The translations under genes were made by a program, and so were the position numbers. Source: a virus. Taken from it: 40,647 nucleotides of DNA. A model generated the notes under the pieces. The model had not been told where the DNA came from and ran no database searches. It saw nothing but the letters and a program-made list of their open reading frames with translations. Location: the UHGV virus genome UHGV-0183130; one strand, written 5' to 3'. How positions within the stretch are numbered: position 1 is the stretch's first letter; the number at the start of each line of letters is the position of its first letter. Below are positions 22,421 to 40,647 of the stretch, piece by piece.

Positions 22421-22846
22421 ATGACTGGTAAAACAATTAATCTGCAATTTGATGGGTATTGGCGTGAAGCCAATAAGAGTGGCGTTCCAGATCAGTCAGG
22501 AATCTACTGCGTATACGCATGCAAAGCTGTTACTAATGGCTCCAAGACAACACTCGAAATTCGTAAGTTGATTTATATCGGCGAATCATCGAACGTCCGA
22601 TCCCGTGTGGCCACGCACGACAGGCTGGGTGACTGGAATGAACATTTAATGGTCGGTGAGACTCTCTGCTATTCCGTCGCTACTATTACTGGAAAAGATG
22701 ATCGGGTGCGCGCAGAAGCTGCATTGATTAACAAAATGACTCCCCCTGCAAATAGCGAGTATACGGGTGAATTCCCTTACAACGAAACCACTGTTAACTG
22801 CTCTGGGGAAACTTCGCATTTGCTTTCCACATTAACCGTTGGTTAA
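22421..22846 (+). CDS. Putative GIY-YIG-like nuclease domain protein
   Basis: 141 aa; SGIYCVY ... KLIYIGESSNVRSRVATH ... RVRAEAALINKMTPPAN fits GIY / YIG / Arg / Glu / Asn motif order, though the GIY-YIG spacing is longer than canonical. Opposite strand to flanking late genes. Confidence 0.45.
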   Translation: MTGKTINLQFDGYWREANKSGVPDQSGIYCVYACKAVTNGSKTTLEIRKLIYIGESSNVRSRVATHDRLGDWNEHLMVGETLCYSVATITGKDDRVRAEAALINKMTPPANSEYTGEFPYNETTVNCSGETSHLLSTLTVG

Positions 22847-22880
22847 CTCTTTAAAATGGCTGGCTAAGTCTAGCGGCCAT

Positions 22881-23042
22881 TCACTTCAAACATTGCTGCC
22901 TGATGTAATCCTGTAAGTAACTCACTTGCCCGGTGATGGTGCTGATTCGCTCTCTGAGGGTGAAATAATCCCGTTTAGCGGCGTCAGTAAGTCGGGGGCT
23001 ATTGCCATCATCCTTACCGATGATATTGTCTGTTTCACTCAC
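22881..23042 (-). pseudogene. Remnant of an Rz (i-spanin) 3' end
   Basis: In-frame minus translation [43 protein letters not shown] matches the Rz C-terminus; about 54 bp at 22945-22998 is a near-repeat of 24061-24114 inside the intact Rz; no N-terminal part. Confidence 0.55.
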
Positions 23043-23165
23043 TCAGTAGTTAGTATGGTTCTGCATTGTCCCTTCACTAATGTCGTGCTGCGATGTAATT
23101 TCACGGAGGGCCATCACTCCGGCACAGTACGCCGCCCCGATGACCTCCCAGTCCGGCTTGCTCAT
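23043..23165 (-). CDS. Small ORF (40 aa) with HTH-like sequence resembling terminase small-subunit N-termini; possibly a gene remnant
   Basis: MSKPDWEVIGAAYCAGVMALREITSQHDISEGTMQNHTNY; AGGA-type SD upstream; ends with stop directly followed in frame by the Rz remnant. Confidence 0.3.
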   Translation of the reverse strand: MSKPDWEVIGAAYCAGVMALREITSQHDISEGTMQNHTNY

Positions 23166-23251
23166 GCTTCTTTCCTATTAAAGTAATCCCATTGATGACC
23201 TATGGTAAGACGGAAGTAAACCTGTCATCTATGCTACCGAGGAGATTCTCG

Positions 23252-23440
23252 ATGGACGAAACAATTACTGAAAATGCTATTAAGCAAGCATATAGCGTTA
23301 CCATCATGCAGCTTTTTAATGTCTATCTAAATTCAGCAAACGATCCCAACGCATCAGCAAGATTTCAGGAAGGGCTTCGTCTTGCGATACAAGTCCGAGA
23401 TGCCTGCTTGCAAATCGCCTCCCAAAACCATGCGCCATGA
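23252..23440 (+). CDS. Hypothetical small protein (AT-rich cargo)
   Basis: ATG with GAGGAG SD; 62 aa; first of three tandem same-strand small ORFs; 4-nt overlap with next ORF. Confidence 0.3.
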   Translation: MDETITENAIKQAYSVTIMQLFNVYLNSANDPNASARFQEGLRLAIQVRDACLQIASQNHAP

Positions 23441-23685
23441 ATTCATTAGCGGCCTATTCAAAAACTACCATTACGATGGGTCTGCCCATGGTTATGGCAA
23501 CGCAGAAAGGTAATAGAATAAGAGTTAATCCCCTGACCTTACCAAACCAGCGGCCCACCCTAATTAGCTCGATTACTTTGAATACAACTTTTGTGTTTAG
23601 GCAACCTCAAAAATCATACAAACATATCACCCACGCTGATAAAAAAACAATCCAAAATAAAATCTCATTTACATCACTGGAGTAA
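23437..23685 (+). CDS. Hypothetical small protein (AT-rich cargo)
   Basis: 82 aa ORF overlapping the previous stop (ATGA); no recognisable family. Confidence 0.25.
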   Translation: MNSLAAYSKTTITMGLPMVMATQKGNRIRVNPLTLPNQRPTLISSITLNTTFVFRQPQKSYKHITHADKKTIQNKISFTSLE

Positions 23686-23690
23686 CAACC

Positions 23691-23936
23691 ATGCCTAACT
23701 GTGAACTTTTAACCGAAACCGGCGTTGATAACTTTGCCATTGTTATCAAATTTCTATCAGAAAACAACCTTATAGATGAAGCAGTTAATTATTTAAAAAA
23801 CAATGGCCATACAAATATTAGAGTCAGCATCGAAGCTGTTGAAGACATACAGAAATTCTTATCCGAAAAATATCCATCATCCTCATCAAGCAAAGCTGAT
23901 GCCATAATTAATTGCAGTCATAGCCATTGCAGTTAA
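23691..23936 (+). CDS. Hypothetical small protein (AT-rich cargo)
   Basis: 81 aa ORF with GGAG SD; acidic, Ser-rich C-terminus; no recognisable family. Confidence 0.3.
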   Translation: MPNCELLTETGVDNFAIVIKFLSENNLIDEAVNYLKNNGHTNIRVSIEAVEDIQKFLSEKYPSSSSSKADAIINCSHSHCS

Positions 23937-25915: not shown

Positions 25916-26605
25916 TCACATTTCTGCCACTTTGAGGGCTTCTTCTTCCTCATAGTATTCAAGAGCCATTGCCAACGCAGATTCATCAAGCTGGGTAAAA
26001 GCGGCCTTTAACCCAGCCCAGTGCCATGAATAGACACGCAACCATGTCGAACGGTCAACGCTAACCATGCGGGCCAACGCTGCACCAGCATAGTCTTTAT
26101 AGGTTTCATTATTTCTGTTTGCGGCAATTTCCTGCCCTGCCAGCCATACCAGACCTATCAGTTTCTTTACTACACGCTCCTGAAGCGAGTTTTCACCCAG
26201 GCATTTCTGATAAGTTTTCCAGACGTATTCACACATCATCACCTGGTGCTTATAGCTAAGGTCAAAACCGTAGCAGTACCGCAACCAGGCCTGCTGGTAT
26301 CCACTAAGCGCGGACACTGCCCTACGCCACGGCGCGGACTCAAATTCCGCATCTTTTATCGGCGGCATTGGCCTGCGGCGGCTGCGTGTTTCCAGCACAT
26401 ACAGTGGCGCGGAAAGCGAGTTAACAAAGCGTGGCCCCTTCTCTCCTTCGAGTTCGACGAGATGAATTCCACGGCGCGGGGTGGCATTTTTGTCTGCTGG
26501 TGGGTGTTCACTGAAAGCCTCAAGCTGCCCTTTTGTTCCCCCAGAGAGGTCAGGTAGCGCGCGGCGCAATTCTATTCTTACAAAATTCAGGTCTTGTTGA
26601 TTCAT
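25916..26605 (-). CDS. Putative late-gene antiterminator (Q-like, QuuQ-type), assigned mainly by position
   Basis: About 229 aa from ATG 26605; sits between the DUF968-like gene and the lysis cassette, matching the ydfU - quuQ - holin order recalled from E. coli Qin prophage; not similar to lambda Q itself. Confidence 0.45.
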   Translation of the reverse strand: MNQQDLNFVRIELRRALPDLSGGTKGQLEAFSEHPPADKNATPRRGIHLVELEGEKGPRFVNSLSAPLYVLETRSRRRPMPPIKDAEFESAPWRRAVSALSGYQQAWLRYCYGFDLSYKHQVMMCEYVWKTYQKCLGENSLQERVVKKLIGLVWLAGQEIAANRNNETYKDYAGAALARMVSVDRSTWLRVYSWHWAGLKAAFTQLDESALAMALEYYEEEEALKVAEM

Positions 26606-26626
26606 GCTTCTTTGCGCTCCATACAC

Positions 26627-28318: not shown

Positions 28319-28705
28319 TCAGGCGGCTGCACCCGCCGGTTCATATCTGCTGATCGTTATCTCTACCCGACCTTTCGGCACTACGGGTCCCCATTCCACC
28401 AGCATGCGCTTAATCTGGCTGTCGTCTTCCCAGACACCCGCATGCGTCAGCGCGTCAAACAGGGCTTTGTTGTAATTATCGATATCCCGGCGGCGCGCAT
28501 CCGGCGGGTACAGAGTGATTTCTACCGCTGCCAGTTCAGTCGATGGCTTCGGGAGACGTCGTAATTGCTCAATGATCGCCACGCAGGCAGCGCTCTGGTA
28601 TTTACGGCCATCAGCGCTAATGAGGTGACGACCGGCCAGCGGCCCCTTGTTAGGGGCGCGCCAGTAGGTGTTCACGCTCGGAGGGAACGGGAGCACAAGT
28701 TTCAT
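28319..28705 (-). CDS. rusA: Holliday junction resolvase RusA
   Basis: Start at ATG 28705 (SD AGGAGG): MKLVLPFPPSVNTYWR ... DARRRDIDNYNKALFDALTHAGVWEDDSQI parallels E. coli RusA. Confidence 0.75.
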   Translation of the reverse strand: MKLVLPFPPSVNTYWRAPNKGPLAGRHLISADGRKYQSAACVAIIEQLRRLPKPSTELAAVEITLYPPDARRRDIDNYNKALFDALTHAGVWEDDSQIKRMLVEWGPVVPKGRVEITISRYEPAGAAA

Positions 28706-30591
28706 GCCACCTCCTGATGTTGCACTGCACACAGTTCCGGAAGATTTGCCTCCACCAGCGCCCTGGCGAATGGTGGTGGTACCGCATTACCACAGCGGGC
28801 TACCTGCTTATCTTTTGCATAGCGATTTCCACGGTAGTCCTGATCAATAACGTATCCATCCGGGAAGCCCTGCGCTTTGTAGAGTTCATGCGGCTGCAAC
28901 ATGCGCATTCCGATATCAACGATCTGGTATTTAACCCCATCGATCGTTACCAGCCATTCATCGTCACTTTCCCCGCAATACGTCTCGAGAAATGTGCGTA
29001 CCTCACCCACGTGTTGGCCACCAGAGGTGATTGTTGGCATGGGCACATCAAGACGTTGCCCGTCGCGGCATGTTCCACGCAGTTTCACCAAATGAGAGGC
29101 AACAACCGCATGATGATCGACAGTGGTCACTGAGTGTGCGGGTTCATCCATACTGACACCCGGTCCCGTATAGTTACCGCCGTAGTGTTTAGCCAGAAAC
29201 GCGCCCACCAATTGTGATTTACCTCCACCACCAGCTGTAATTGTGGCGCTCGGTTCGTCTGCCCGGTGGCCGACGCTGGCCCCAAACTGGCGGGCTATCA
29301 CTGGCGCAACAAGACAGGCGCGGGATTGCTTCATAATGGTATGAGCAGGTTTATCCAGCGGGCGCGGTTTAGCCTGGTATTCACTACCACCATTACCCGC
29401 CAGGAATGGCGTCAGTGCAGCCTCAACAATCCCGAGTGCATGCCCATTCCCACCCGGGCGTTTTGACGTGCCAGCGGTTACCGTCGGGACAGGTTCGGTA
29501 ACGGGCTGCCCGGTTGCCCCAGTGCGGAATTTTGTCAGGTGTGGAACAGCTAACGCGTAACCGTGGGTTTTAGTAATAGTTTGCAAAGGCTCGTCCAGCT
29601 TCTGACCACGGAAACAGTCGTAACTCGTTTTGGTGCTGGTGTGATTGCACTTCACGATAAACGGCGACGCACTTTCGATAACAAAGCGCTGTATGCCGCG
29701 CGCGATCCGCTTCAGCGTGTTCTCCGCCAGCGTTTTTTTGCGGTCGAAGATGGACAGGGCCGGAACATTCCAGTCGATACATTCCGCAGCGGTACGCCAT
29801 GGCATCAGCCTGCCGCTCTGCACCTCCAGAGACTTAGGATCCCCATGGGTAACTGCAGGCCACTGGATTGGGCAGCCATCGCAGCGCATAACCATGAAGA
29901 AGCGTTTGCGGATCGTCGGCGCGCCGTAATCACACGCGCGTAGTTCGCGATAATCAACATCATATCCAAGCCCATCCACCAGCTTTTGCGCCTGCTCGCT
30001 ACCTCTTTCGATAGACAGAAACTCACAAACCTCAGCCAGTGCCGGGTGATCAGCAGGAATACCAGTGGATAGCATGCCGACAAATGCCTCAAATGTTTCA
30101 CCAGCTCGTGCCGGATCCGGACGCTGCGCATCATAAGGCGGTATAACTGGGCCAACAAATGCAGCCAAATCATCCCCCACCAGATTGGGATTTTGTGGCT
30201 CAGCTGGTAATAGCGGTCCCCACGTTTTGAACTCTTCCACGTTCTCCAGCATCATCACGCGCGGTCGCTTTGCCAGTGCCCAACGCAGAACAATCCAGGC
30301 CAGACCGCGTATCTCTTTTTTCACAGGCTTGGCGCCTTTTGCCTTCGAGAAGTGTCGGCAGTCCGGGCTAAACCATGCCAGGCCGACAGGATTACCTCCG
30401 GTGGCGGCTACCGGATCCACGTCAAATACGGATTCGCAGTAATGCAGTGTTTCCGGGTGATTCGTCTTGTGCATCGCAATGGCGTTTTCGTCGTGGTTGA
30501 TCGCAATATCCACGCTGCGTCCGATCGCCAGTTCAATACCCGTTGATGCGCCACCGCCACCAGCAAAGTTATCAACGATAATCTCACGCAT
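28702..30591 (-). CDS. DNA (cytosine-5)-methyltransferase, orphan, with large extra region
   Basis: 629 aa; motif I-like DNFAGGGGASTG, PC-motif-like SPDCRHFSKAKG, ENV motif (MLENVEEF); no adjacent restriction endonuclease candidate. Confidence 0.7.
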   Translation of the reverse strand: MREIIVDNFAGGGGASTGIELAIGRSVDIAINHDENAIAMHKTNHPETLHYCESVFDVDPVAATGGNPVGLAWFSPDCRHFSKAKGAKPVKKEIRGLAWIVLRWALAKRPRVMMLENVEEFKTWGPLLPAEPQNPNLVGDDLAAFVGPVIPPYDAQRPDPARAGETFEAFVGMLSTGIPADHPALAEVCEFLSIERGSEQAQKLVDGLGYDVDYRELRACDYGAPTIRKRFFMVMRCDGCPIQWPAVTHGDPKSLEVQSGRLMPWRTAAECIDWNVPALSIFDRKKTLAENTLKRIARGIQRFVIESASPFIVKCNHTSTKTSYDCFRGQKLDEPLQTITKTHGYALAVPHLTKFRTGATGQPVTEPVPTVTAGTSKRPGGNGHALGIVEAALTPFLAGNGGSEYQAKPRPLDKPAHTIMKQSRACLVAPVIARQFGASVGHRADEPSATITAGGGGKSQLVGAFLAKHYGGNYTGPGVSMDEPAHSVTTVDHHAVVASHLVKLRGTCRDGQRLDVPMPTITSGGQHVGEVRTFLETYCGESDDEWLVTIDGVKYQIVDIGMRMLQPHELYKAQGFPDGYVIDQDYRGNRYAKDKQVARCGNAVPPPFARALVEANLPELCAVQHQEVA

Positions 30592-31465
30592 GGGTTACCC
30601 CCTGCATGCTGCCGACAAGACCACGCGCAATTGTGATAATTTCGCTGGTGGCCGTTCGTTCCAGCCAGAGTTGATTGATGTTGGCTTTCAGCTTGTTCTG
30701 CTGAGCCTCACTCAATACGTCAACGCCTTCCACCTGGTTAAACACCAGACCAACCTCGAGAGGCCAGATACGTGACTCAGTTTCCGATGGTATGACTGGC
30801 TCCTGGGGTGCTCGCATTGCAATTGTCGGCTCTTTGCCAACAGCGAATTGAGCCAGCGCCATAAATGCCCGACCTTTTGCCTCCAGTTCTGTGCGGTTGA
30901 TATAGCTGAACCGCTCACCACGCCATGACTTATCGAATACAGCTATGGCACCGGCAAAAAACGCGCTGGTGGGCTTCTGTTTTTCGTCAGCAGGTACAAA
31001 CCACACTGGCAGATCGAACCCAATGCGCCCGCGAATGAATACAATGTGATCGGCATCTTCCGGCCACCACGTTTCACTTGGCGCGGCTTTTATCAGGAAT
31101 ACATAGCGACCGCCCTTCTCGCACTGGGCTGCTGCGTACTTCATGATGTGCGTCATACCAGTGATCGCCTGTTTCTCGTGGTACTGCGAACGGCTATACG
31201 GTGGGTTGCCATAACCTGCGCCACCCAGTTCTGCCAGACGTTCAGACCAGTCCTGGGTCAGCGCGTTATCTTCGGCGGTGTACCATGCCGGGCATTTCGC
31301 GTTGTCGTCGTCAGCAAACAAATCCAGAACTAATGGACCAAATAGCGCGTTGATCCCCCAAAACAGCAGATCCGGTGTTCGCCACTGATCGCCAACTTCT
31401 TTCAATTCGTGAGCTGGTTTACTGCGCAGTTCTGCCAGCGACTGGCAATATTTATTTGGCATCAT
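30584..31465 (-). CDS. Phage-type DNA N6-adenine methyltransferase (Dam-like), orphan
   Basis: 293 aa; catalytic NPPY motif (GYGNPPYSRSQ); overlaps downstream MTase start by 8 nt. Confidence 0.65.
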   Translation of the reverse strand: MMPNKYCQSLAELRSKPAHELKEVGDQWRTPDLLFWGINALFGPLVLDLFADDDNAKCPAWYTAEDNALTQDWSERLAELGGAGYGNPPYSRSQYHEKQAITGMTHIMKYAAAQCEKGGRYVFLIKAAPSETWWPEDADHIVFIRGRIGFDLPVWFVPADEKQKPTSAFFAGAIAVFDKSWRGERFSYINRTELEAKGRAFMALAQFAVGKEPTIAMRAPQEPVIPSETESRIWPLEVGLVFNQVEGVDVLSEAQQNKLKANINQLWLERTATSEIITIARGLVGSMQGVTHA

Positions 31466-32328
31466 GAGCGGAACCCCGAATGTTCTGGAAGTGAGTAGTC
31501 AACATTTTGGAAGCTTGCGCGGCTGGCTGAGTTAGCCGTCCATTTACCGTTAACGCGCTCAGGTCGCCCAGCGGCAGACCATTTGGTCGCGCTTTGCAGG
31601 TAACCAGGGAAGTTTTTTGGAATAAACAGAGTTGCCGGACGGAGATATTGAGCCTGCTCGCTATCACGCCAATCAGCGTTTTTGTAATCCACCACAAGGC
31701 ACAGATCATCAACAGTGAACCGTTCCCGCAGACGGGCACGAATGTTCTCCAGCGACGTGCTGCATACCTGATAGCGTGAACCAGTTGTCTGGTTCAGGTA
31801 AGACAAAACCTGTCTGGCCTGATCAGTAATCACAATCTCAGGGTCGGGTTGCGCCGCAACCGGACAAGAGGGTTTTGAAGTTACTTGTGGATCTTGTGTT
31901 GATTTTACTGACGGATCCCCGCCAGATTCTGACGGGTCAAAACCGCCGTTTTTGCCAGATTTCGACGGGTCAGTTTTTGAGGCGTCAAATTTTGATGCGT
32001 CAGATTTTGACGTGTCAGAATCTGACAGTTGAGAAAATGCGGCAGCCTGAAGTTTCGCCACATTCAGGCGGTACACGTTCGAAGCATTACGGTTACCATT
32101 ACGGCGCTGTGTGCGCGTGAGCCAGCCATCTTTTTCAAGCTTTGCGATTGCCGTTCTGATAGTGCTCGGCCCTGCGCCAAGCTGGCGAGCAATAGTTTCA
32201 ATGGACGGCCAGCACACACCTTCATCGCTGCTGAAATCAGCAAGGCGAGCCATGATCGCGACACTAGACAACTTCATGCCCGACGCTGCGCAACCATCCC
32301 ATACGTAGCCGGTTAATTTAGTGCTCAT
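31462..32328 (-). CDS. Replication initiation protein (lambda O-like), iterons inside its coding sequence
   Basis: 288 aa; N-terminal winged-HTH-like region, repetitive linker (SDSDTSKSDASKFDASKTDPSKSG) encoded by DNA iterons, conserved-looking C-terminal domain. Confidence 0.65.
   Translation of the reverse strand: MSTKLTGYVWDGCAASGMKLSSVAIMARLADFSSDEGVCWPSIETIARQLGAGPSTIRTAIAKLEKDGWLTRTQRRNGNRNASNVYRLNVAKLQAAAFSQLSDSDTSKSDASKFDASKTDPSKSGKNGGFDPSESGGDPSVKSTQDPQVTSKPSCPVAAQPDPEIVITDQARQVLSYLNQTTGSRYQVCSTSLENIRARLRERFTVDDLCLVVDYKNADWRDSEQAQYLRPATLFIPKNFPGYLQSATKWSAAGRPERVNGKWTANSASRASFQNVDYSLPEHSGFRS
31900..32030. repeat. Origin iterons (putative ori) within the O-like gene
   Basis: Six to seven tandem copies of a roughly 15-17 bp unit related to AGATTTTGACGNGTC (e.g. 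ccagattctgacgggtc, ccagatttcgacgggtc, aaattttgatgcgtc, agattttgacgtgtc, agaatctgacag). Confidence 0.6.
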
Positions 32329-32337
32329 GATCGTCCG

Positions 32338-32664
32338 TTATCTCCCTGAACTTTTGCCTGAAATGCTCAAGTGGGCTGAAGCATTCGTGCGGGTAGCCAT
32401 CACGCAGATAGATAACGCGCTGTGTTTCTGGCTCCCAGCGGATAACACGGACTGGCACTCCGCGGTTGTCTTTGAACCTTCGATTAAGTTCGCGCACAGG
32501 CGTTTTGCCCTCCGGTTGTAGACCCCCACAATTGAAACCGCCCTACTGTGGTTACACGGAACCCAGCGGTTTGATAATCTGCGTTCATACCGAAACAACG
32601 GAGTACCCGAAACCGGGATCATCCTGAGTTGCGGTAGACGGTCAAAAGCCGTTAAACTGCTCAT
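32338..32664 (-). CDS. Hypothetical ORF between the CII-position gene and the O-like gene (uncertain)
   Basis: 108-codon minus ORF from ATG 32664, 6 nt after the upstream stop, ending 10 nt before the O-like ATG; atypical Ser/Arg-rich composition, weak SD; competing plus-strand ORF 32321-32521. Confidence 0.25.
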   Translation of the reverse strand: MSSLTAFDRLPQLRMIPVSGTPLFRYERRLSNRWVPCNHSRAVSIVGVYNRRAKRLCANLIEGSKTTAECQSVLSAGSQKHSALSICVMATRTNASAHLSISGKSSGR

Positions 32665-32669
32665 GCGGA

Positions 32670-33221
32670 TTATTTCTCCATACTCGAAGAGTTGTTCGCC
32701 AAGGCGCCCGGAGCTGCACACTCGCGGGCGTCACTCTTTTCAGCGACACAAAAAACTCGATACAGAAGCGTTACGTGCTCCTGGAACTTAGCGATAACCT
32801 GATAGCTGTTTTCCTCAATCTGACCACGCTCATCTGCGTCAATTACCCCATCAGCCGTGGCTTTACGTACAAAATTCGAATGACGGCCTATCCATTCGAT
32901 GGACTCCATCAGGCGCTGATTTATATCGGCGTTATCCAGATCATCAACATCTGCCAGTGGTACAAATACGCCCTGAGAATGGCGCGCAACGGCATCAGCG
33001 ATATGAGTTGAACCACCAGCACGTTGTAAAACCATTGCCCAGCCCAGTGGGAAGATCTGGTCGCCGTCAACACGAAGGCGGTTAAACAATGCGTTCTCTG
33101 TCACGCCCAACCATTCCGCCGCCTCGGCATAACCACCAGGTAGATCGGTGATCGTTTTTTTTATCGCCGCTACCAGCCAGGCTGGCTGACGTTCGACTTT
33201 CCAAATAGGTTCGTTACCCAC
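32670..33221 (-). CDS. CII-position HTH regulatory protein (YdaT/CII-like), function uncertain
   Basis: 183 aa immediately after cro; GTG start with AAGGAG SD; HTH-like segment GGYAEAAEWLGVTENALFNRLR. Confidence 0.4.
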   Translation of the reverse strand: MGNEPIWKVERQPAWLVAAIKKTITDLPGGYAEAAEWLGVTENALFNRLRVDGDQIFPLGWAMVLQRAGGSTHIADAVARHSQGVFVPLADVDDLDNADINQRLMESIEWIGRHSNFVRKATADGVIDADERGQIEENSYQVIAKFQEHVTLLYRVFCVAEKSDARECAAPGALANNSSSMEK

Positions 33222-33243: not shown

Positions 33244-33447
33244 TTACTGGTTAGCAGATACGCCTGTAACCTTGTGATATAGGGATGCGTCATACTTAAG
33301 TTTCCCATTAGTAATTCTCTCTATTACGAAGGCTTGCTTCTCAGGGATGACCTTTCCCCAACGACATACGGCAGGGTGTGAGATATTCAAAGCAACAGCG
33401 GTTTTAGAGATACCGCCAAAATGCTTTACGACTTCGGACTTATACAT
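33244..33447 (-). CDS. cro: Cro-like HTH repressor
   Basis: 67 aa, divergent from cI across the operator region; HTH-like SKTAVALNISHPAVCRWGK; SD GGAGG. Confidence 0.65.
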   Translation of the reverse strand: MYKSEVVKHFGGISKTAVALNISHPAVCRWGKVIPEKQAFVIERITNGKLKYDASLYHKVTGVSANQ

Positions 33448-33539: not shown

Positions 33540-34199
33540 ATGAAAACAGAGATGAAAGACCGCATCAGATCCAGACGAATCCAGCTGGATATAACCCAAT
33601 TAGCACTGGCTAAAAAGCTTGGTGTAAGCCGTGTATCGGTTACAAAATGGGAAAACGGCACGACAAAGCCTGATGGTGAGAACCTTCACCAGTTGGCTCA
33701 GGCTCTATCAACAACACCAGAGTGGATACTCTATGGAAGCGGTGATGAGGCCATTGACGACACGCGCGTCGTGCCTTTTTTGAAACCCCCTGTAGCTGTA
33801 CCGATCATATCGGCAGTTCAAGCCGGTTTATGGACGGATAGCTATGCCTGCTCAAGACTTACAGACGTGATTTCCTGGACTCAAACAACTGCAAATGTAT
33901 CGGATGAAGCGTTTGGGTTAGTAGTCCGCGGTGAGTCGATGACTAACCCGCAAGGACTTCCATCTATACCAGAAGGTTCTATTGTTATAGTCGAGCCCCA
34001 TTATGGGCAGCTTGATGATCTATATGGGAAAATAGTCGTTGCTATATTGGATGGGACATCAGAAGCAACGGTTAAAAAATTAGTTTGGGATAGCCCCTAC
34101 TCATACCTAATGCCACTGAATCCGTTATTTAAGCCAATCCAAATTGATGGTAACTGTCGCATTGTCGGAAAAGTTGTACAAATCACTCAAAACATTTAA
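33540..34199 (+). CDS. cI: CI-like repressor (HTH_XRE N-domain plus LexA/S24 autopeptidase C-domain)
   Basis: 219 aa; N-terminal HTH (ITQLALAKKLGVSRVSVTKWENG), C-terminal S24 features (VRGESM serine region, KK pair); divergent from cro. Confidence 0.85.
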   Translation: MKTEMKDRIRSRRIQLDITQLALAKKLGVSRVSVTKWENGTTKPDGENLHQLAQALSTTPEWILYGSGDEAIDDTRVVPFLKPPVAVPIISAVQAGLWTDSYACSRLTDVISWTQTTANVSDEAFGLVVRGESMTNPQGLPSIPEGSIVIVEPHYGQLDDLYGKIVVAILDGTSEATVKKLVWDSPYSYLMPLNPLFKPIQIDGNCRIVGKVVQITQNI

Positions 34200-36667: not shown

Positions 36668-36918
36668 CCGTATTTGAATATCTCCAGGCTCATCCGAATA
36701 CCACCAGCGGTGAAATCGCCAAAGGTATGAACAAAACTACGCCAGCGGTCGCCGGAGCATTATCGCAACTCTATGGCACAGGCCGGATCGTGAAGTCTGG
36801 TGTTCGCAAGGGCATTCCAACATACCGTGTTAACGATATGCCGTTTGGGTGTAGTAACAGCCTAACCATGATGTTTAACCAGCTATTGAATAGAGCCAGA
36901 CAGGGAAGCGCGCTATGA
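36664..36918 (+). CDS. Small winged-helix DNA-binding protein (MarR-like wHTH)
   Basis: 84 aa; FEYLQAHPNTTSGEIAKGMNKTTPAVAGALSQLYGTGRIV is a typical wHTH recognition-helix/wing layout; coupled (ATGA) to flanking ORFs. Confidence 0.45.
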   Translation: MTVFEYLQAHPNTTSGEIAKGMNKTTPAVAGALSQLYGTGRIVKSGVRKGIPTYRVNDMPFGCSNSLTMMFNQLLNRARQGSAL

Positions 36919-37991
36919 GCAAATCGAGTATGGAGTATTACTTCGAGTTCCCTGCCTCTCGCGGCTTGCAGGGGGATACGCTTATTCTTTTGATGAACGT
37001 TCCAGGACGAACCCTATCCCGCGTACTGGCATCTGATAATTACGGACACACGCTTGAGCGTTCTCAGCGTGAACTCAATAAATCACGCGTAAAAAATTTT
37101 TACGAATACCTAGTGGCAGCTGCTGAAAATAAGGAGCCTTTCATCATCCCACCACTGGTTGGTAACTGTGCTTCACATGTGGAGTTTGAAGAGTTCGGCA
37201 ATACAAACGTAGGCGTTGTTCGGTTCCCAATGGACGCAGAAATTAAACTTTTTGATGGGCAACATCGTGGTGCAGGTATAACCATGTTCTGCAGAGAATA
37301 CGATACACCCCTGTTTGTACCTTTGATGATGACTCTGCAACTACCACTGAAGACACGCCAGCAATTTTTCTCTGATATCAATAACAACGTATCTAAGCCT
37401 TCTGCAGCAATAAATATGGCTTATAACGGCAGGGATCAGGTTGCCCAGACAATGGTGTCATTCCTCTCCACTCACTCAGTGTTCTCCGAGATCACCGATT
37501 TTGAACACAGCGTGGTTCCGGCAAAAAGTGACCTCTGGATTAGTTTTAAGGCCGTTGGTGATGCAACTGCTAAATTCGCGGGTAACGGGGACGATGCGCT
37601 GTCTACTGGCGATATTTATGACCTTTGGGAAGCGTGGCTGAAGCTGACGGCTATTGATGGTATCCGACACGGTGTATCACCAGCTGAATACAAGCGAGAT
37701 TACATCCAATTCCATGCGGTGATGATCAATGCGTTTGGCTATGCAGTCCAGGAACTACTGAGGCGTCGCCCTGCGCATATCATCGTGCAGATGATCGAAG
37801 AACTGGTAACAAAAGCCACAATGACCGAGCTGGAAGACTTCTTCCTTATCTCTTCATGGGATGGTGTTTGTGCTGATGCCAGCAAAGAAAGAGCCACGGT
37901 AATTGCCAGCGTTCCGGCACAGAAAGCTGCAGCACAAAGGCTTGCAATGGCTATCACAGCAGGGACATTCGCAATGGAGGCAGCCCAATGA
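36915..37991 (+). CDS. DGQHR-domain protein (DndB-like / ParB-like fold)
   Basis: 358 aa with the signature FDGQHRGAGI; coupled by ATGA overlaps to the wHTH gene upstream and the Ea22-like gene downstream. Confidence 0.6.
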   Translation: MSKSSMEYYFEFPASRGLQGDTLILLMNVPGRTLSRVLASDNYGHTLERSQRELNKSRVKNFYEYLVAAAENKEPFIIPPLVGNCASHVEFEEFGNTNVGVVRFPMDAEIKLFDGQHRGAGITMFCREYDTPLFVPLMMTLQLPLKTRQQFFSDINNNVSKPSAAINMAYNGRDQVAQTMVSFLSTHSVFSEITDFEHSVVPAKSDLWISFKAVGDATAKFAGNGDDALSTGDIYDLWEAWLKLTAIDGIRHGVSPAEYKRDYIQFHAVMINAFGYAVQELLRRRPAHIIVQMIEELVTKATMTELEDFFLISSWDGVCADASKERATVIASVPAQKAAAQRLAMAITAGTFAMEAAQ

Positions 37992-39278: not shown

Positions 39279-39515
39279 ATGTCGCGAATGATCCCTTTAC
39301 TTGACTGGGCAAAAGAGGAATTTGGAGAGCAAGCACCAAGTGAACGCATATTGAAAAAATATGCAAAGGGAAAAATGATGGCTCCTCCAGCAATTAAGGT
39401 TGGTCGCTGCTGGATGGTTGATCGTAATGCCCGATTTGTAGGAATGCTTGCAGAACCGAAAATTCCGACTTCGGCCAGCCCAAGATTACAACGGATAATT
39501 GCTGATGGCTGCTAG
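39279..39515 (+). CDS. xis: Excisionase-like protein
   Basis: About 78 aa from ATG 39279 (SD GGAG); immediately upstream of and overlapping int; KVGRCWMVDRNARFVG fits small excisionase DNA-binding proteins. Confidence 0.5.
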   Translation: MSRMIPLLDWAKEEFGEQAPSERILKKYAKGKMMAPPAIKVGRCWMVDRNARFVGMLAEPKIPTSASPRLQRIIADGC

Positions 39516-40647
39516 ACCACGCACTCACAAAATACCAATCCCTAACCTGTACTGCAAATTGGATAAGCGCACCGGTAAGGTATATTGGCAATATAAACAT
39601 CCTATTTCAGGTCGTTTTCACAGCCTTGGAACCGATGAATCCGAGGCTAAACAAGTCGCCACAGAAGCTAACATAATCATAGCTGAACAGCGAACTAGGC
39701 AGATCTTGAGCGTGAATGATCGCCTGGCACGGATGAAAGGCAGGCGCACTGATATTACGGTTACTGAGTGGCTCGATAAATACATAGGCATTCAGGAGGA
39801 AAGGCTTAAAAATAACGAGCTTAAACCAAACTCCTTTCTTCAAAAAGGTAAGCCTGTCCGTTTATTCAGAGAACACTGCGGCCTGCAGCATCTAAAGGAT
39901 ATTTCAGCTCTCGATATTGCAGAAATAACTGATGCCATTAAAGCCGAAGGCCACAATCGCATGGCTCAGGTAGTTAGAATGGTGCTCATCGATGTTTTTA
40001 AAGAGGCGCAACATGCCGGACACGTTGCCCCCGGATACAATCCGGCGCAAGCCACTAAGCAACCGAGAAATAGAATAACAAGGCAGCGTCTTTCCTTTGA
40101 TGAATGGAGTGTTATTTATAAGACGGCGGAACAGCAGCAGCCTTATCTTCAGTGTGGCATGTTATTAGCCCTAATCACTGGTCAGCGTCTTGGTGATATA
40201 TGCAATATGAAATTCACCGATGTATGGGATGACATGCTCCATATCGAGCAGGAAAAAACAGGTTCTCGTCTGGCTATTCCGTTAGATCTTAGATGCGAGG
40301 TGCTGGGCCTCACTCTCAGGGATGTTATTTCAAAATGTCGGGATGCGGTTGTCAGTAAATATCTTGTCCATTTCAGGCACACCACATCCCAGGCCAATAG
40401 AGGTGATCGAGTGTCGAGCAGCTGCCTGACATCCACTTTTAAAAAAGCCAGAGACAAAAGCGGCCTAGAGTGGAAAAACGGTACGCCCCCAACTTTCCAT
40501 GAACAGCGTTCTTTATCGGAGCGACTGTATCGTGAACAGGGTCTGGATACTCAGAAACTGCTGGGGCACAAGTCCAGAAAAATGACGGATAAGTATAACG
40601 ACGATCGAGGGAAAGACTGGGTCGTTGTTGGGGTAAAAACGGGGTAA
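39505..40647 (+). CDS. int: Tyrosine integrase, lambda Int family
   Basis: C-terminal catalytic region parallels lambda Int (ITGQRLGDICNMKFTDV, PPTFHEQRSLSERLY, LLGHKS, DKYNDDRGKDW); track ORF begins at TTG 39499, first ATG at 39505; stop codon is the last three bases of the window. Confidence 0.85.
   Translation: MAARPRTHKIPIPNLYCKLDKRTGKVYWQYKHPISGRFHSLGTDESEAKQVATEANIIIAEQRTRQILSVNDRLARMKGRRTDITVTEWLDKYIGIQEERLKNNELKPNSFLQKGKPVRLFREHCGLQHLKDISALDIAEITDAIKAEGHNRMAQVVRMVLIDVFKEAQHAGHVAPGYNPAQATKQPRNRITRQRLSFDEWSVIYKTAEQQQPYLQCGMLLALITGQRLGDICNMKFTDVWDDMLHIEQEKTGSRLAIPLDLRCEVLGLTLRDVISKCRDAVVSKYLVHFRHTTSQANRGDRVSSSCLTSTFKKARDKSGLEWKNGTPPTFHEQRSLSERLYREQGLDTQKLLGHKSRKMTDKYNDDRGKDWVVVGVKTG

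What the first reader, a model, noticed from the sequence alone, without database searches (positions are those of the whole stretch)
31462..32328. O-like initiator with internal iterons but no helicase loader or helicase gene
The iteron array (31900-32030) inside the initiator gene matches the lambda ori-in-O design, yet the gene is followed directly by methyltransferases and no P-like, DnaC-like or DnaB-like gene appears between it and Q. The initiator may recruit host helicase directly through its C-terminal domain.
Basis: partly seen in the sequence, partly recalled or inferred. Interest (0 to 1): 0.45.

Follow-up and report, generated by a model that had tools for sequence, protein, structure and literature searches.

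The report
Loader-less phage origin and initiator
This prophage carries a common type of replication gene that contains its own origin and has no helicase-loader gene beside it; its C-terminal end resembles the tail of the host restart protein DnaT, which hints at how such phages borrow the host's helicase-loading machinery.

Summary
ORF 31462-32328 (-) encodes a 288-aa initiator with an N-terminal winged helix (HTH_36), a disordered linker and a helical C-domain (Phg_2220_C). The linker DNA holds six palindromic 13-bp sites, five at a 15-bp period, followed by the most AT-rich 40 bp of the gene. Across 83 distinct homologues, synonymous variation collapses in codons 98-157 (0.14 vs 0.83 bits, p=3e-20). 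That indicates a cis-acting DNA element, arranged like lambda ori inside O.

No P-, DnaC- or DnaB-like sequence exists in the whole prophage, in any frame, or in 160 related loci. The design is very common in enterobacterial lambdoid phages, including plaque-forming ones, so it is ordinary as genomics.

One thing was new to me. The family's extreme C-terminus (...IPxGFRG; here ...LPEHSGFRS) matches the conserved, functionally unassigned tail of host DnaT. This tail sits on several unrelated initiator backgrounds. Each is followed either by a DnaC-like loader or by no loader, and lambda O, which uses P, lacks it. The inferred mechanism is that the initiator engages host DnaB-DnaC through this C-terminal region. 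This is untested.

The parts
31462..32328 (-). Replication initiator gene (288 aa), intact
   Evidence: ORF list. Pfam HTH_36 (45 bits) and Phg_2220_C (89 bits). PHROGs 'replication initiation protein / O-like / primosomal protein'. 2224 homologues, mostly Citrobacter prophages; an 87% homologue occurs in E. coli Nissle 1917.
32020..32328 (-). N-terminal winged-helix DNA-binding domain (aa 1-103), presumed iteron reader
   Evidence: AF2 pLDDT above 90 with a wHTH topology. Foldseek best matches are MarR/ArsR-type winged-helix proteins, some bound to DNA. Pfam HTH_36, with weak DnaD_N.
31849..32019 (-). Disordered interdomain linker (aa 104-160), whose DNA carries the origin
   Evidence: AF2 pLDDT 51-60 and no secondary structure. 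The peptide contains S-K-x-D-x pentapeptide repeats.
31858..32037 (.). Zone of DNA-level (synonymous-site) constraint; proposed origin of replication
   Evidence: In 83 distinct homologous CDS, synonymous codon entropy is 0.14 bits in codons 98-157 and 0.83 bits elsewhere (Mann-Whitney p=3e-20). Amino-acid conservation is similar in both (0.89 vs 0.83).
31954..32026 (.). Five tandem 13-bp palindromic sites (GTCA-N5-TGAC type) at 15-bp spacing: 32014-32026, 31999-32011, 31984-31996, 31969-31981, 31954-31966
   Evidence: The same array, with 4-7 copies, is present in phiNP, SfII, LLS, YeP1, Klebsiella phage 1 LV-2017, vB_EcoS-733R5 and PhiR49_1.
31921..31933 (.). Sixth, distal site (GCCAGATTCTGAC), 33 bp from the fifth
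   Evidence: The 33-bp offset of the last copy recurs in five of the seven homologues examined: phiNP, SfII, YeP1, Klebsiella phage 1 LV-2017 and PhiR49_1.
31873..31912 (.). Most AT-rich 40 bp of the gene (67.5% AT), just downstream of the sites, with two conserved GATC; candidate unwinding region
   Evidence: The GATC-forming codons GAT-CCG (138-139) and GAT-CCA (146-147) are almost invariant.
31573..31842 (-). C-terminal helical domain (aa 163-252), Phg_2220_C / TIGR02220
31465..31503 (-). Conserved C-terminal peptide VDYSLPEHSGFRS, a diverged form of the DnaT-type tail ...IPxGFRG
   Evidence: 77 of 83 distinct homologues end in GFR[GST], after a poorly conserved stretch. Relatives end KRDVMAFGPVDTTIPEGFRG or RDINAISQPNDTIPPGFRG; E. 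coli DnaT ends [20 protein letters not shown]. The NCBIfam DnaT model matches the tail of relative L072 (E 2.6e-4) but not the window protein.
30584..31465 (-). Dam-type N6-adenine methyltransferase, overlapping the initiator by ATGA (context, not a loader)
   Evidence: Pfam Dam, 149 bits. The overlap was read from the sequence. The initiator is followed by a methyltransferase in phiNP, LLS, the Klebsiella phage and 733R5 as well.
28702..30591 (-). C5-cytosine methyltransferase (context, not a loader)
   Evidence: Pfam DNA_methylase; PHROGs.

Best explanation
This is the replication module of a lambdoid prophage, probably of Citrobacter freundii. It consists of one gene that is both initiator and origin.

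Shown:
- The protein has a winged-helix N-domain, a disordered linker and a small helical C-domain.
- The linker-coding DNA holds six palindromic 13-bp sites followed by an AT-richer stretch, and this DNA is conserved at synonymous positions.
- No phage loader or helicase is encoded anywhere in the prophage.

Inferred:
- Dimers of the N-domain bind the sites during rightward early transcription and distort or open the adjacent AT-rich DNA.
- The C-terminal region then brings in the host's own DnaB-DnaC complex, so the host's DnaC does the loading that P does for lambda. This region comprises the Phg_2220_C domain (of the DnaD/'replisome organiser' class) and the conserved terminal peptide that resembles the tail of host DnaT.
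- The tail is most likely a docking peptide for the DnaC-type loading machinery. On other initiators the same tail occurs next to a phage DnaC-like gene or with no loader at all. In the host it sits on DnaT, encoded next to dnaC. It is absent from lambda O, which uses P.
For: Architecture.

Origin:
- The repeat array is far above chance.
- It is conserved with variable copy number in seven phages, including ones whose C-domain differs.
- Synonymous entropy falls six-fold exactly over the disordered linker.
- The AT maximum lies just downstream of the sites.
- Distant Firmicute homologues (phi4B1, SA13) carry different 15-bp-period repeats at the same position in the gene.

No loader:
- Domain searches of all early genes found none.
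- Six-frame tblastn of the window found none.
- 0 of 87 loci, and 0 of 80 window-type plus 0 of 80 SfII-type loci, have P, DnaC or DnaB, against 79 of 80 lambda O loci with P.
- The same layout occurs in isolated, propagating phages.

Tail:
- tblastn of DnaT against relative L072 gives E 5.6e-4.
- The NCBIfam DnaT model aligns to L072 residues 259-286, matching DnaT 152-179.
- hhalign of the initiator C-region plus tail against the DnaT C-terminal domain plus tail gives probability 90%, E 1.4e-6.
- The DnaT tail is conserved as far as Buchnera.
- The tail occurs on Rac YdaU, Gifsy-2 O and POCJ13 gp16, each followed by an IstB/DnaC-like gene. It also occurs on SPN1S Rep, HannyBb O, the SfII type and the window type, which have no loader.

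Literature: DnaT residues 154-179 have no known structure, and how DnaT recruits DnaB/DnaC is an open question (PMC4132743, PMC5778457, PMC13377028).
Against: - No binding or replication experiment exists for this family, as far as the searchable literature shows.
- The window protein's own tail (LPEHSGFRS) is a diverged variant. It is not matched by the DnaT NCBIfam model at E 0.1 or better.
- Most of the hhalign score against DnaT may come from the tail. Without the tail the C-domain profile does not match DnaT (probability 1%).
- The AT-rich stretch is modest (67.5%).
- The 2026 preprimosome structure paper proposes the DnaT N-domain, not the tail, as the candidate DnaB/DnaC recruiter (PMC13377028). 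The tail could instead bind PriA, PriB, ssDNA or something else.
- The related loci surveyed are close relatives, so the counts are not independent events.
Confidence: 0.55

Rival explanations
1. The initiator works through the PriA-type restart primosome rather than by contacting DnaB-DnaC itself. After origin opening, or R-loop formation by early transcription, the C-domain plus tail stand in for DnaT on PriA/PriB, and DnaB is then loaded as at a stalled fork. pBR322-type replication depends on dnaT in a comparable way.
For: The tail, and perhaps the C-domain, resemble the C-terminal region of DnaT. SPN1S Rep carries a complete DnaT DNA-binding domain plus the tail and has no loader. The DnaT C-terminal domain docks on PriA and forms filaments on ssDNA (PMC13377028). 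dnaT is required for pBR322 replication (cited in PMC4132743).
Against: The window protein lacks the Pfam DnaT domain. The PriB-binding acidic linker and the N-domain of DnaT are absent. Tail-bearing initiators often sit next to a DnaC-like gene, which points to the loader rather than to PriA.
Confidence: 0.2
2. A loader exists but is unrecognised. A small or unannotated neighbouring protein performs the P-like function. Candidates are DUF4222 at 32318-32497, the C-terminal extension of the Dam-type methylase, DUF968, and YfdN/PerC in SfII-type phages.
For: Several neighbours have no assigned function. The initiator and the methylase are translationally coupled by an ATGA overlap. SfII-type phages always have YfdN/PerC after the initiator.
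Against: No neighbour is shared by all loader-less relatives. The gene after the initiator is a methylase, YfdN, DUF1064 or Ren-like, depending on the phage. No loader-like domain or remnant was detected.
Confidence: 0.1
3. The 15-bp repeats are only a by-product of a low-complexity peptide linker (S-K-x-D-x repeats) that evolves by slippage. The origin lies elsewhere, or the prophage is replication-defective.
For: The repeat period is exactly five codons, the region is predicted disordered, and copy number varies between phages.
Against: - The units are DNA palindromes, which a peptide repeat does not require.
- Synonymous positions are almost frozen, while amino-acid conservation is no higher than elsewhere.
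- The constraint extends about 60 bp beyond the repeats into non-repetitive DNA.
- Distant homologues have different repeat sequences at the same position and with the same period.
- The same genes occur in plaque-forming phages.
Confidence: 0.07
4. Host DnaA supplies helicase recruitment, as in iteron plasmids (pSC101, F, R6K, RK2), where Rep and DnaA cooperate at the origin.
For: In principle the design, an iteron-binding initiator without its own loader, is the plasmid design (established knowledge).
Against: There is no DnaA box (TTWTNCACA, 1 mismatch allowed) anywhere in 31300-32800, and only one exact box in the whole window, at 30317.
Confidence: 0.05

Closest known systems
Phage lambda O/ori-lambda with P (initiator plus helicase-loader module)
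   Same: The initiator gene lies in the rightward early operon after cro/cII. It has an N-terminal DNA-binding domain, a flexible linker and a C-terminal partner-binding domain. Palindromic iterons with an A-rich centre lie inside the linker-coding DNA, followed by an AT-rich stretch. Sister phages (the SfII type) even carry a C-domain 31-38% identical to the lambda O C-terminal region (residues 78-270 or 179-280, depending on the phage).
   Different: There is no P gene. The N-domain is HTH_36 rather than Phage_rep_O. There are six 13-bp sites, five at 15-bp spacing, rather than lambda's four annotated 18-bp iterons at 20-24 bp spacing. The C-domain is Phg_2220_C. A DnaT-type C-terminal tail is present, which lambda O lacks.
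Initiator plus DnaC-like loader modules with the same tail (Rac ydaU-ydaV, Gifsy-2 O-DnaC, Stx phage POCJ13 gp16-gp17) and the host dnaT-dnaC operon
   Same: The protein ends in ...IPxGFRG-type residues, and the position in the early operon is the same. The O-P / DopC-DopE / DnaT-DnaC parallel has been drawn by Brezellec et al. 2017 (PMC5509034).
   Different: Those modules encode their own IstB/DnaC-like ATPase immediately downstream, and this prophage does not. Their N- and C-domains differ. The window's tail is a diverged variant.
Firmicute phage 'replisome organiser / DnaD-like' initiators with the Phg_2220_C domain (e.g. Bacillus phage phi4B1 gp44, Staphylococcus phage SA13 gp17)
   Same: The same C-domain family. 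15-bp-period repeats lie at the same place inside the gene.
   Different: They are followed directly by a DnaC-like loader. They have no DnaT-type tail (their hosts have no DnaT; own knowledge).
Iteron-plasmid Rep initiators (pSC101 RepA, R6K pi, RK2 TrfA) and phage P1 RepL/oriL
   Same: A single element-encoded initiator binds repeats and relies on host DnaB-DnaC. For P1 RepL the origin lies inside the gene (own knowledge, not tested here).
   Different: No sequence or domain relationship was found. There are no DnaA boxes at this origin. The plasmid Reps have two winged-helix domains (own knowledge).
'Initiator-solo' replication modules in the classification of Weigel and Seitz 2006 (FEMS Microbiol Rev 30:321)
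   Same: As I recall it, this class describes lambdoid modules with an O-type initiator and embedded origin but no loader or helicase gene.
   Different: The paper could not be retrieved, and the term is absent from the searchable library. The assignment rests on memory alone.

Membership tests
Lambda-type origin-inside-initiator module (by architecture) | Initiator with an N-terminal sequence-specific DNA-binding domain | tested here: met
   HTH_36 at 45 bits against a cut-off of 25. The AF2 model is a winged helix, with MarR-type Foldseek matches. DNA binding itself was not tested.
Lambda-type origin-inside-initiator module (by architecture) | Repeated initiator-binding sites inside the initiator's own coding sequence, in the interdomain linker, under DNA-level selection | tested here: met
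   Six sites. Synonymous entropy 0.14 vs 0.83 bits, p=3e-20, coinciding with the low-pLDDT linker.
Lambda-type origin-inside-initiator module (by architecture) | AT-rich unwinding region next to the sites | tested here: inconclusive
   The gene's AT maximum (67.5% over 40 bp) lies directly downstream of the last site, but the enrichment is modest.
Lambda O protein family (by homology) | Pfam Phage_rep_O (PF04492) N-domain, or detectable similarity to lambda O | tested here: not met
   No PF04492 hit for the window protein, whereas lambda O scores 123 bits. The best tblastn hit of lambda O in the window has E 0.085 and lies outside the gene. hhalign of the C-domain profile against lambda-O-type C-domains gives probability below 1%.
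Lambda O-P module | A P-type loader gene downstream of the initiator | tested here: not met
   No P in the window or in 160 related loci. 79 of 80 lambda O loci have P.
Phg_2220_C / TIGR02220 phage replication initiators ('replisome organiser', DnaD-like) | PF09524 / TIGR02220 domain above the curated cut-off | tested here: met
   PF09524 at 89.3 bits against 27. TIGR02220 at 73.5 bits against 66.65.
Phg_2220_C / TIGR02220 phage replication initiators ('replisome organiser', DnaD-like) | Fold like the DnaD C-terminal (DDBH2) domain | tested here: inconclusive
Phg_2220_C / TIGR02220 phage replication initiators ('replisome organiser', DnaD-like) | An adjacent DnaC/DnaI-like loader gene, as in the two Firmicute members examined (phi4B1, SA13) | tested here: not met
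   Present in phi4B1 and SA13. Absent here and in enterobacterial relatives.
DnaT (primosomal protein I) | DnaT DNA-binding domain (PF17948) / NCBIfam NF002770 | tested here: not met
   Neither model hits the window protein. NF002770 matches only the last 28 residues of relative L072. The C-domain profile against DnaT without the tail gives probability 1%; with the tail, 90%.
DnaT (primosomal protein I) | Conserved C-terminal tail ...(R)D(V/I)N..(S/P).PD..IPxGFRG | tested here: inconclusive
   The window ends ...FQNVDYSLPEHSGFRS. It shares the GFR terminus and the preceding proline but is diverged. Close relatives carry near-canonical tails.
Iteron-plasmid Rep initiators | DnaA boxes beside the iterons | tested here: not met
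   None with 1 mismatch or fewer in 31300-32800.

The most novel reading that the evidence does not exclude
The C-terminal peptide ...IPxGFRG is a portable docking motif for the DnaC-type helicase-loading machinery (DnaC or the DnaB-DnaC complex). Host DnaT and many phage initiators share it. Loader-less phages such as this one use it to hand their origin directly to host DnaB-DnaC. If this is right, the conserved but functionally unassigned DnaT tail (residues about 154-179) is the missing element by which the restart primosome recruits DnaB-DnaC.
Probability: 0.35. Interest if true: 0.7.

Novelty: new member of a known kind. Interest (0 to 1): 0.45.

Why it matters
As genomics this is routine. 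It is a very common initiator family, already annotated as 'replication protein O' or 'primosomal protein I', and the origin-inside-the-gene design is classical.

The value lies in the comparative pattern that emerged. One short C-terminal peptide is shared by host DnaT and by at least six differently built phage initiators. It is always found in settings where loading must go through a DnaC-type loader, and it is missing where P is used.

How DnaT recruits DnaB-DnaC is described as unknown in the 2017 review and in the 2026 preprimosome structure paper. This peptide gives a concrete, cheap hypothesis to test. It would also explain how a large group of temperate phages of Escherichia, Shigella, Salmonella, Citrobacter and Klebsiella replicate with a single phage-encoded replication protein.

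Tried and rejected
- **Degraded loader or helicase remnants.** tblastn of lambda P, DnaC, DnaT, DnaB and P22 gp12 against all frames found nothing.
- **Loader elsewhere in the prophage.** Pfam on the early-left operon and the lysis-proximal ORFs found none.
- **PDB relatives by sequence.** With the whole protein only marginal MarR-type winged-helix matches to the N-domain appeared (E 0.026 or worse); the C-domain profile found no replication protein.
- **Homology of the C-domain to lambda O or to the DnaT domain proper.** hhalign did not support it. Only the version including the tail scores.
- **DnaA boxes at the origin.** None.
- **Known RNA families.** None in the window.
- **Promoter and terminator scan around the origin.** Not above shuffled expectation.
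- **Degenerate DNA pattern for the tail in viral contigs.** A systematic tail-versus-loader census was therefore not possible, and only sampled loci were inspected.
- **Literature.** 'initiator-solo', 'DnaT-like' and Weigel and Seitz 2006 were not retrievable. The SfIV genome paper does not discuss the missing loader.
Full report
**What is there**

The window is a complete lambdoid prophage:
- integrase at 39499-40647 (+)
- cI-type repressor at 33540-34199 (+)
- cro at 33244-33447 (-)
- a cII-like gene at 32670-33221 (-)
- a 59-aa DUF4222 ORF at 32318-32497 (-)
- the gene in question at 31462-32328 (-)
- a Dam-type methylase, a C5 methylase, RusA, a Rha/KilAC antirepressor, DUF968 and Q (25916-26626)
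- lysis and structural genes

The closest proteins are from Citrobacter freundii prophages. An 87% homologue occurs in E. coli Nissle 1917 and on at least 1000 contigs.

**The protein**

Pfam finds HTH_36 (aa 23-70) and Phg_2220_C (aa 174-245), both well above cut-off. NCBIfam finds TIGR02220. PHROGs place it among replication initiators.

An AlphaFold2 model gives four regions:
- a confident winged-helix domain, aa 1-103
- a disordered linker, aa 104-160 (pLDDT 51-60)
- a confident helical domain, aa 163-252 (pLDDT 96-98)
- a low-confidence tail

**The origin**

The array is the best tandem repeat in the window. It comprises five 13-bp palindromic sites of the GTCA-N5-TGAC type at 15-bp spacing, plus a sixth site 33 bp further on. 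This clustering is far above chance.

The most AT-rich 40 bp of the gene (67.5% AT, 31873-31912) follow immediately and contain two GATC sites.

The same array, with four to seven copies, is present in seven phages from Citrobacter, Escherichia, Shigella, Yersinia and Klebsiella.

I collected 83 distinct homologous coding sequences. In these, synonymous codon entropy is 0.14 bits in codons 98-157 and 0.83 bits elsewhere (p=3e-20). Amino-acid conservation is about the same in both regions. The frozen zone (window 31858-32037) coincides with the disordered linker and extends beyond the repeats. This is what a cis-acting DNA element inside a tolerant peptide segment should look like, and it mirrors lambda ori inside O.

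Distant Firmicute homologues carry different repeats with the same 15-bp period at the same place in the gene. The arrangement therefore looks ancestral to the family, with the site sequence differing between lineages.

No DnaA box lies near the origin. No Rfam family or notable promoter or terminator signal explains the constraint.

**No loader**

None of the early genes has a helicase or loader domain. Six-frame tblastn with lambda P, DnaC, DnaT, DnaB and P22 gp12 finds no remnant.

This is not decay of one prophage:
- 0 of 80 window-type and 0 of 80 SfII-type viral loci contain P, DnaC or DnaB within 5 kb, against 79 of 80 lambda O loci with P.
- Isolated phages (phiNP, LLS, SfII, YeP1, Klebsiella phage 1 LV-2017, vB_EcoS-733R5, PhiR49_1) have the same layout.
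- In contrast, Firmicute phages with the same C-domain have a DnaC-like gene immediately downstream.

**The C-terminal tail**

After a poorly conserved stretch (aa about 253-275), the last residues are highly conserved at the protein level, with normal synonymous variation. 77 of 83 distinct homologues end in GFR[GST].

The tails compare as follows:
- close relatives: ...KKRDVMAFGPVDTTIPEGFRG or ...RDINAISQPNDTIPPGFRG
- E. coli DnaT: ...[20 protein letters not shown]
- the window: the more diverged ...FQNVDYSLPEHSGFRS

The similarity to DnaT is detected three ways:
- tblastn, E 5.6e-4
- the NCBIfam DnaT model, which aligns to residues 259-286 of relative L072, matching DnaT 152-179, E 2.6e-4
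- hhalign, probability 90%

It is not detected for the window protein itself by the DnaT model, nor for the C-domain without the tail.

The DnaT tail is conserved as far as Buchnera. It lies outside the solved DNA-binding domain. Its structure is unknown, and deleting it has been reported only to weaken cooperative ssDNA binding. How DnaT recruits DnaB-DnaC is described as unknown (PMC4132743, PMC5778457, PMC13377028).

The tail behaves as a portable module. It occurs in these settings:
- with a lambda-O-like C-domain in SfII-type and HannyBb initiators, which have no loader
- with a full DnaT domain in SPN1S Rep, which has no loader
- on Rac YdaU, on Gifsy-2 O (which has a true Phage_rep_O N-domain) and on Stx-phage POCJ13 gp16, each followed by an IstB/DnaC-like ATPase
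- in the host, where dnaT lies next to dnaC

Lambda O, which works with P, lacks it.

Brezellec et al. 2017 already compared O-P, DopC-DopE and DnaT-DnaC and noted the HTH_36, _2220_C and DnaT_C domains (PMC5509034). I found no discussion of this tail or of loader-less initiators.

**Mechanism proposed**

Shown: the domain layout, the origin signature and the absence of a loader.

Inferred:
- N-domain dimers bind the six sites and open the adjacent AT-rich DNA.
- The C-terminal region engages the host DnaC-type loading machinery, so that host DnaB is placed on the phage origin without a phage loader.
- The tail is the best candidate for the contact.

The main rival is that the C-terminal region stands in for DnaT on PriA/PriB. 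Lesser rivals are an unrecognised loader among the neighbours, repeats that are only a peptide by-product, and DnaA-assisted loading. Each is addressed in the rival list.

**Verdict**

However, the feature is a common, already annotated kind of replication module rather than an oddity. The DnaT-type tail is the one lead that a specialist might find worth an experiment.

Noticed in passing
Representative proteins P0131, P0135, P0139, P0147, P0158, P0160, P0176: Other members of the Phg_2220_C initiator family end in acidic-hydrophobic tips (..YDDNTVF..YDDDTPL..GNDDGLI..AHDEFI) that look like the C-terminal tip of SSB. A third tail class, W..IW..C.QR..G.KAA, occurs in YeP1 and others. Initiator tails may be interchangeable docking peptides for different host factors.
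   Followed up: partly
window 31873-31917 and 30584-31465: Two GATC sites sit in the AT-rich part of the origin and are almost invariant across 83 homologues. A Dam-type methylase gene follows the initiator with an ATGA stop/start overlap, and this adjacency recurs in several relatives. Origin methylation might be part of the module.
   Followed up: partly
L252:2866-2940 (Bacillus phage phi4B1) and L253:2827-2883 (Staphylococcus phage SA13): Distant homologues of the initiator carry tandem repeats with the same 15-bp period at the same position in the gene but with unrelated sequence (GAAAAGCCACATGTG-type; TTTTCGGAAAACGGA-type).
   Followed up: partly
window 36915-37991 (+): A 358-aa DndB-family protein (PF14072, 161 bits) sits in the early-left operon with no other dnd genes nearby. 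It is an orphan DndB-like gene in a prophage.
   Followed up: no
window 28702-30591 (-): The C5-cytosine methyltransferase is unusually long (629 aa). The Pfam DNA_methylase match is split into three stretches, which suggests a large insertion between the conserved motifs.
   Followed up: no
L002:5001-5942, L005:4001-4954, L006:4001-4984, L007:4001-4942: SfII-, PhiR49_1-, Klebsiella- and 733R5-type initiators share the window's N-domain and iterons. Their C-domain, however, is 31-38% identical to the lambda O C-terminal region (the part that binds P in lambda), yet these phages have no P gene.
   Followed up: yes
window 22421-23936 (+): A block of five small plus-strand ORFs, the first with a weak GIY-YIG match (E 0.0019), lies between the lysis genes and the packaging genes, on the opposite strand to both. 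It looks like a moron cluster.
   Followed up: no
P0329 (Salmonella, 160 aa): This protein has a complete DnaT C-terminal domain and tail but an unrelated, low-complexity N-terminus. It is a second, probably mobile-element-borne, DnaT-like protein.
   Followed up: no
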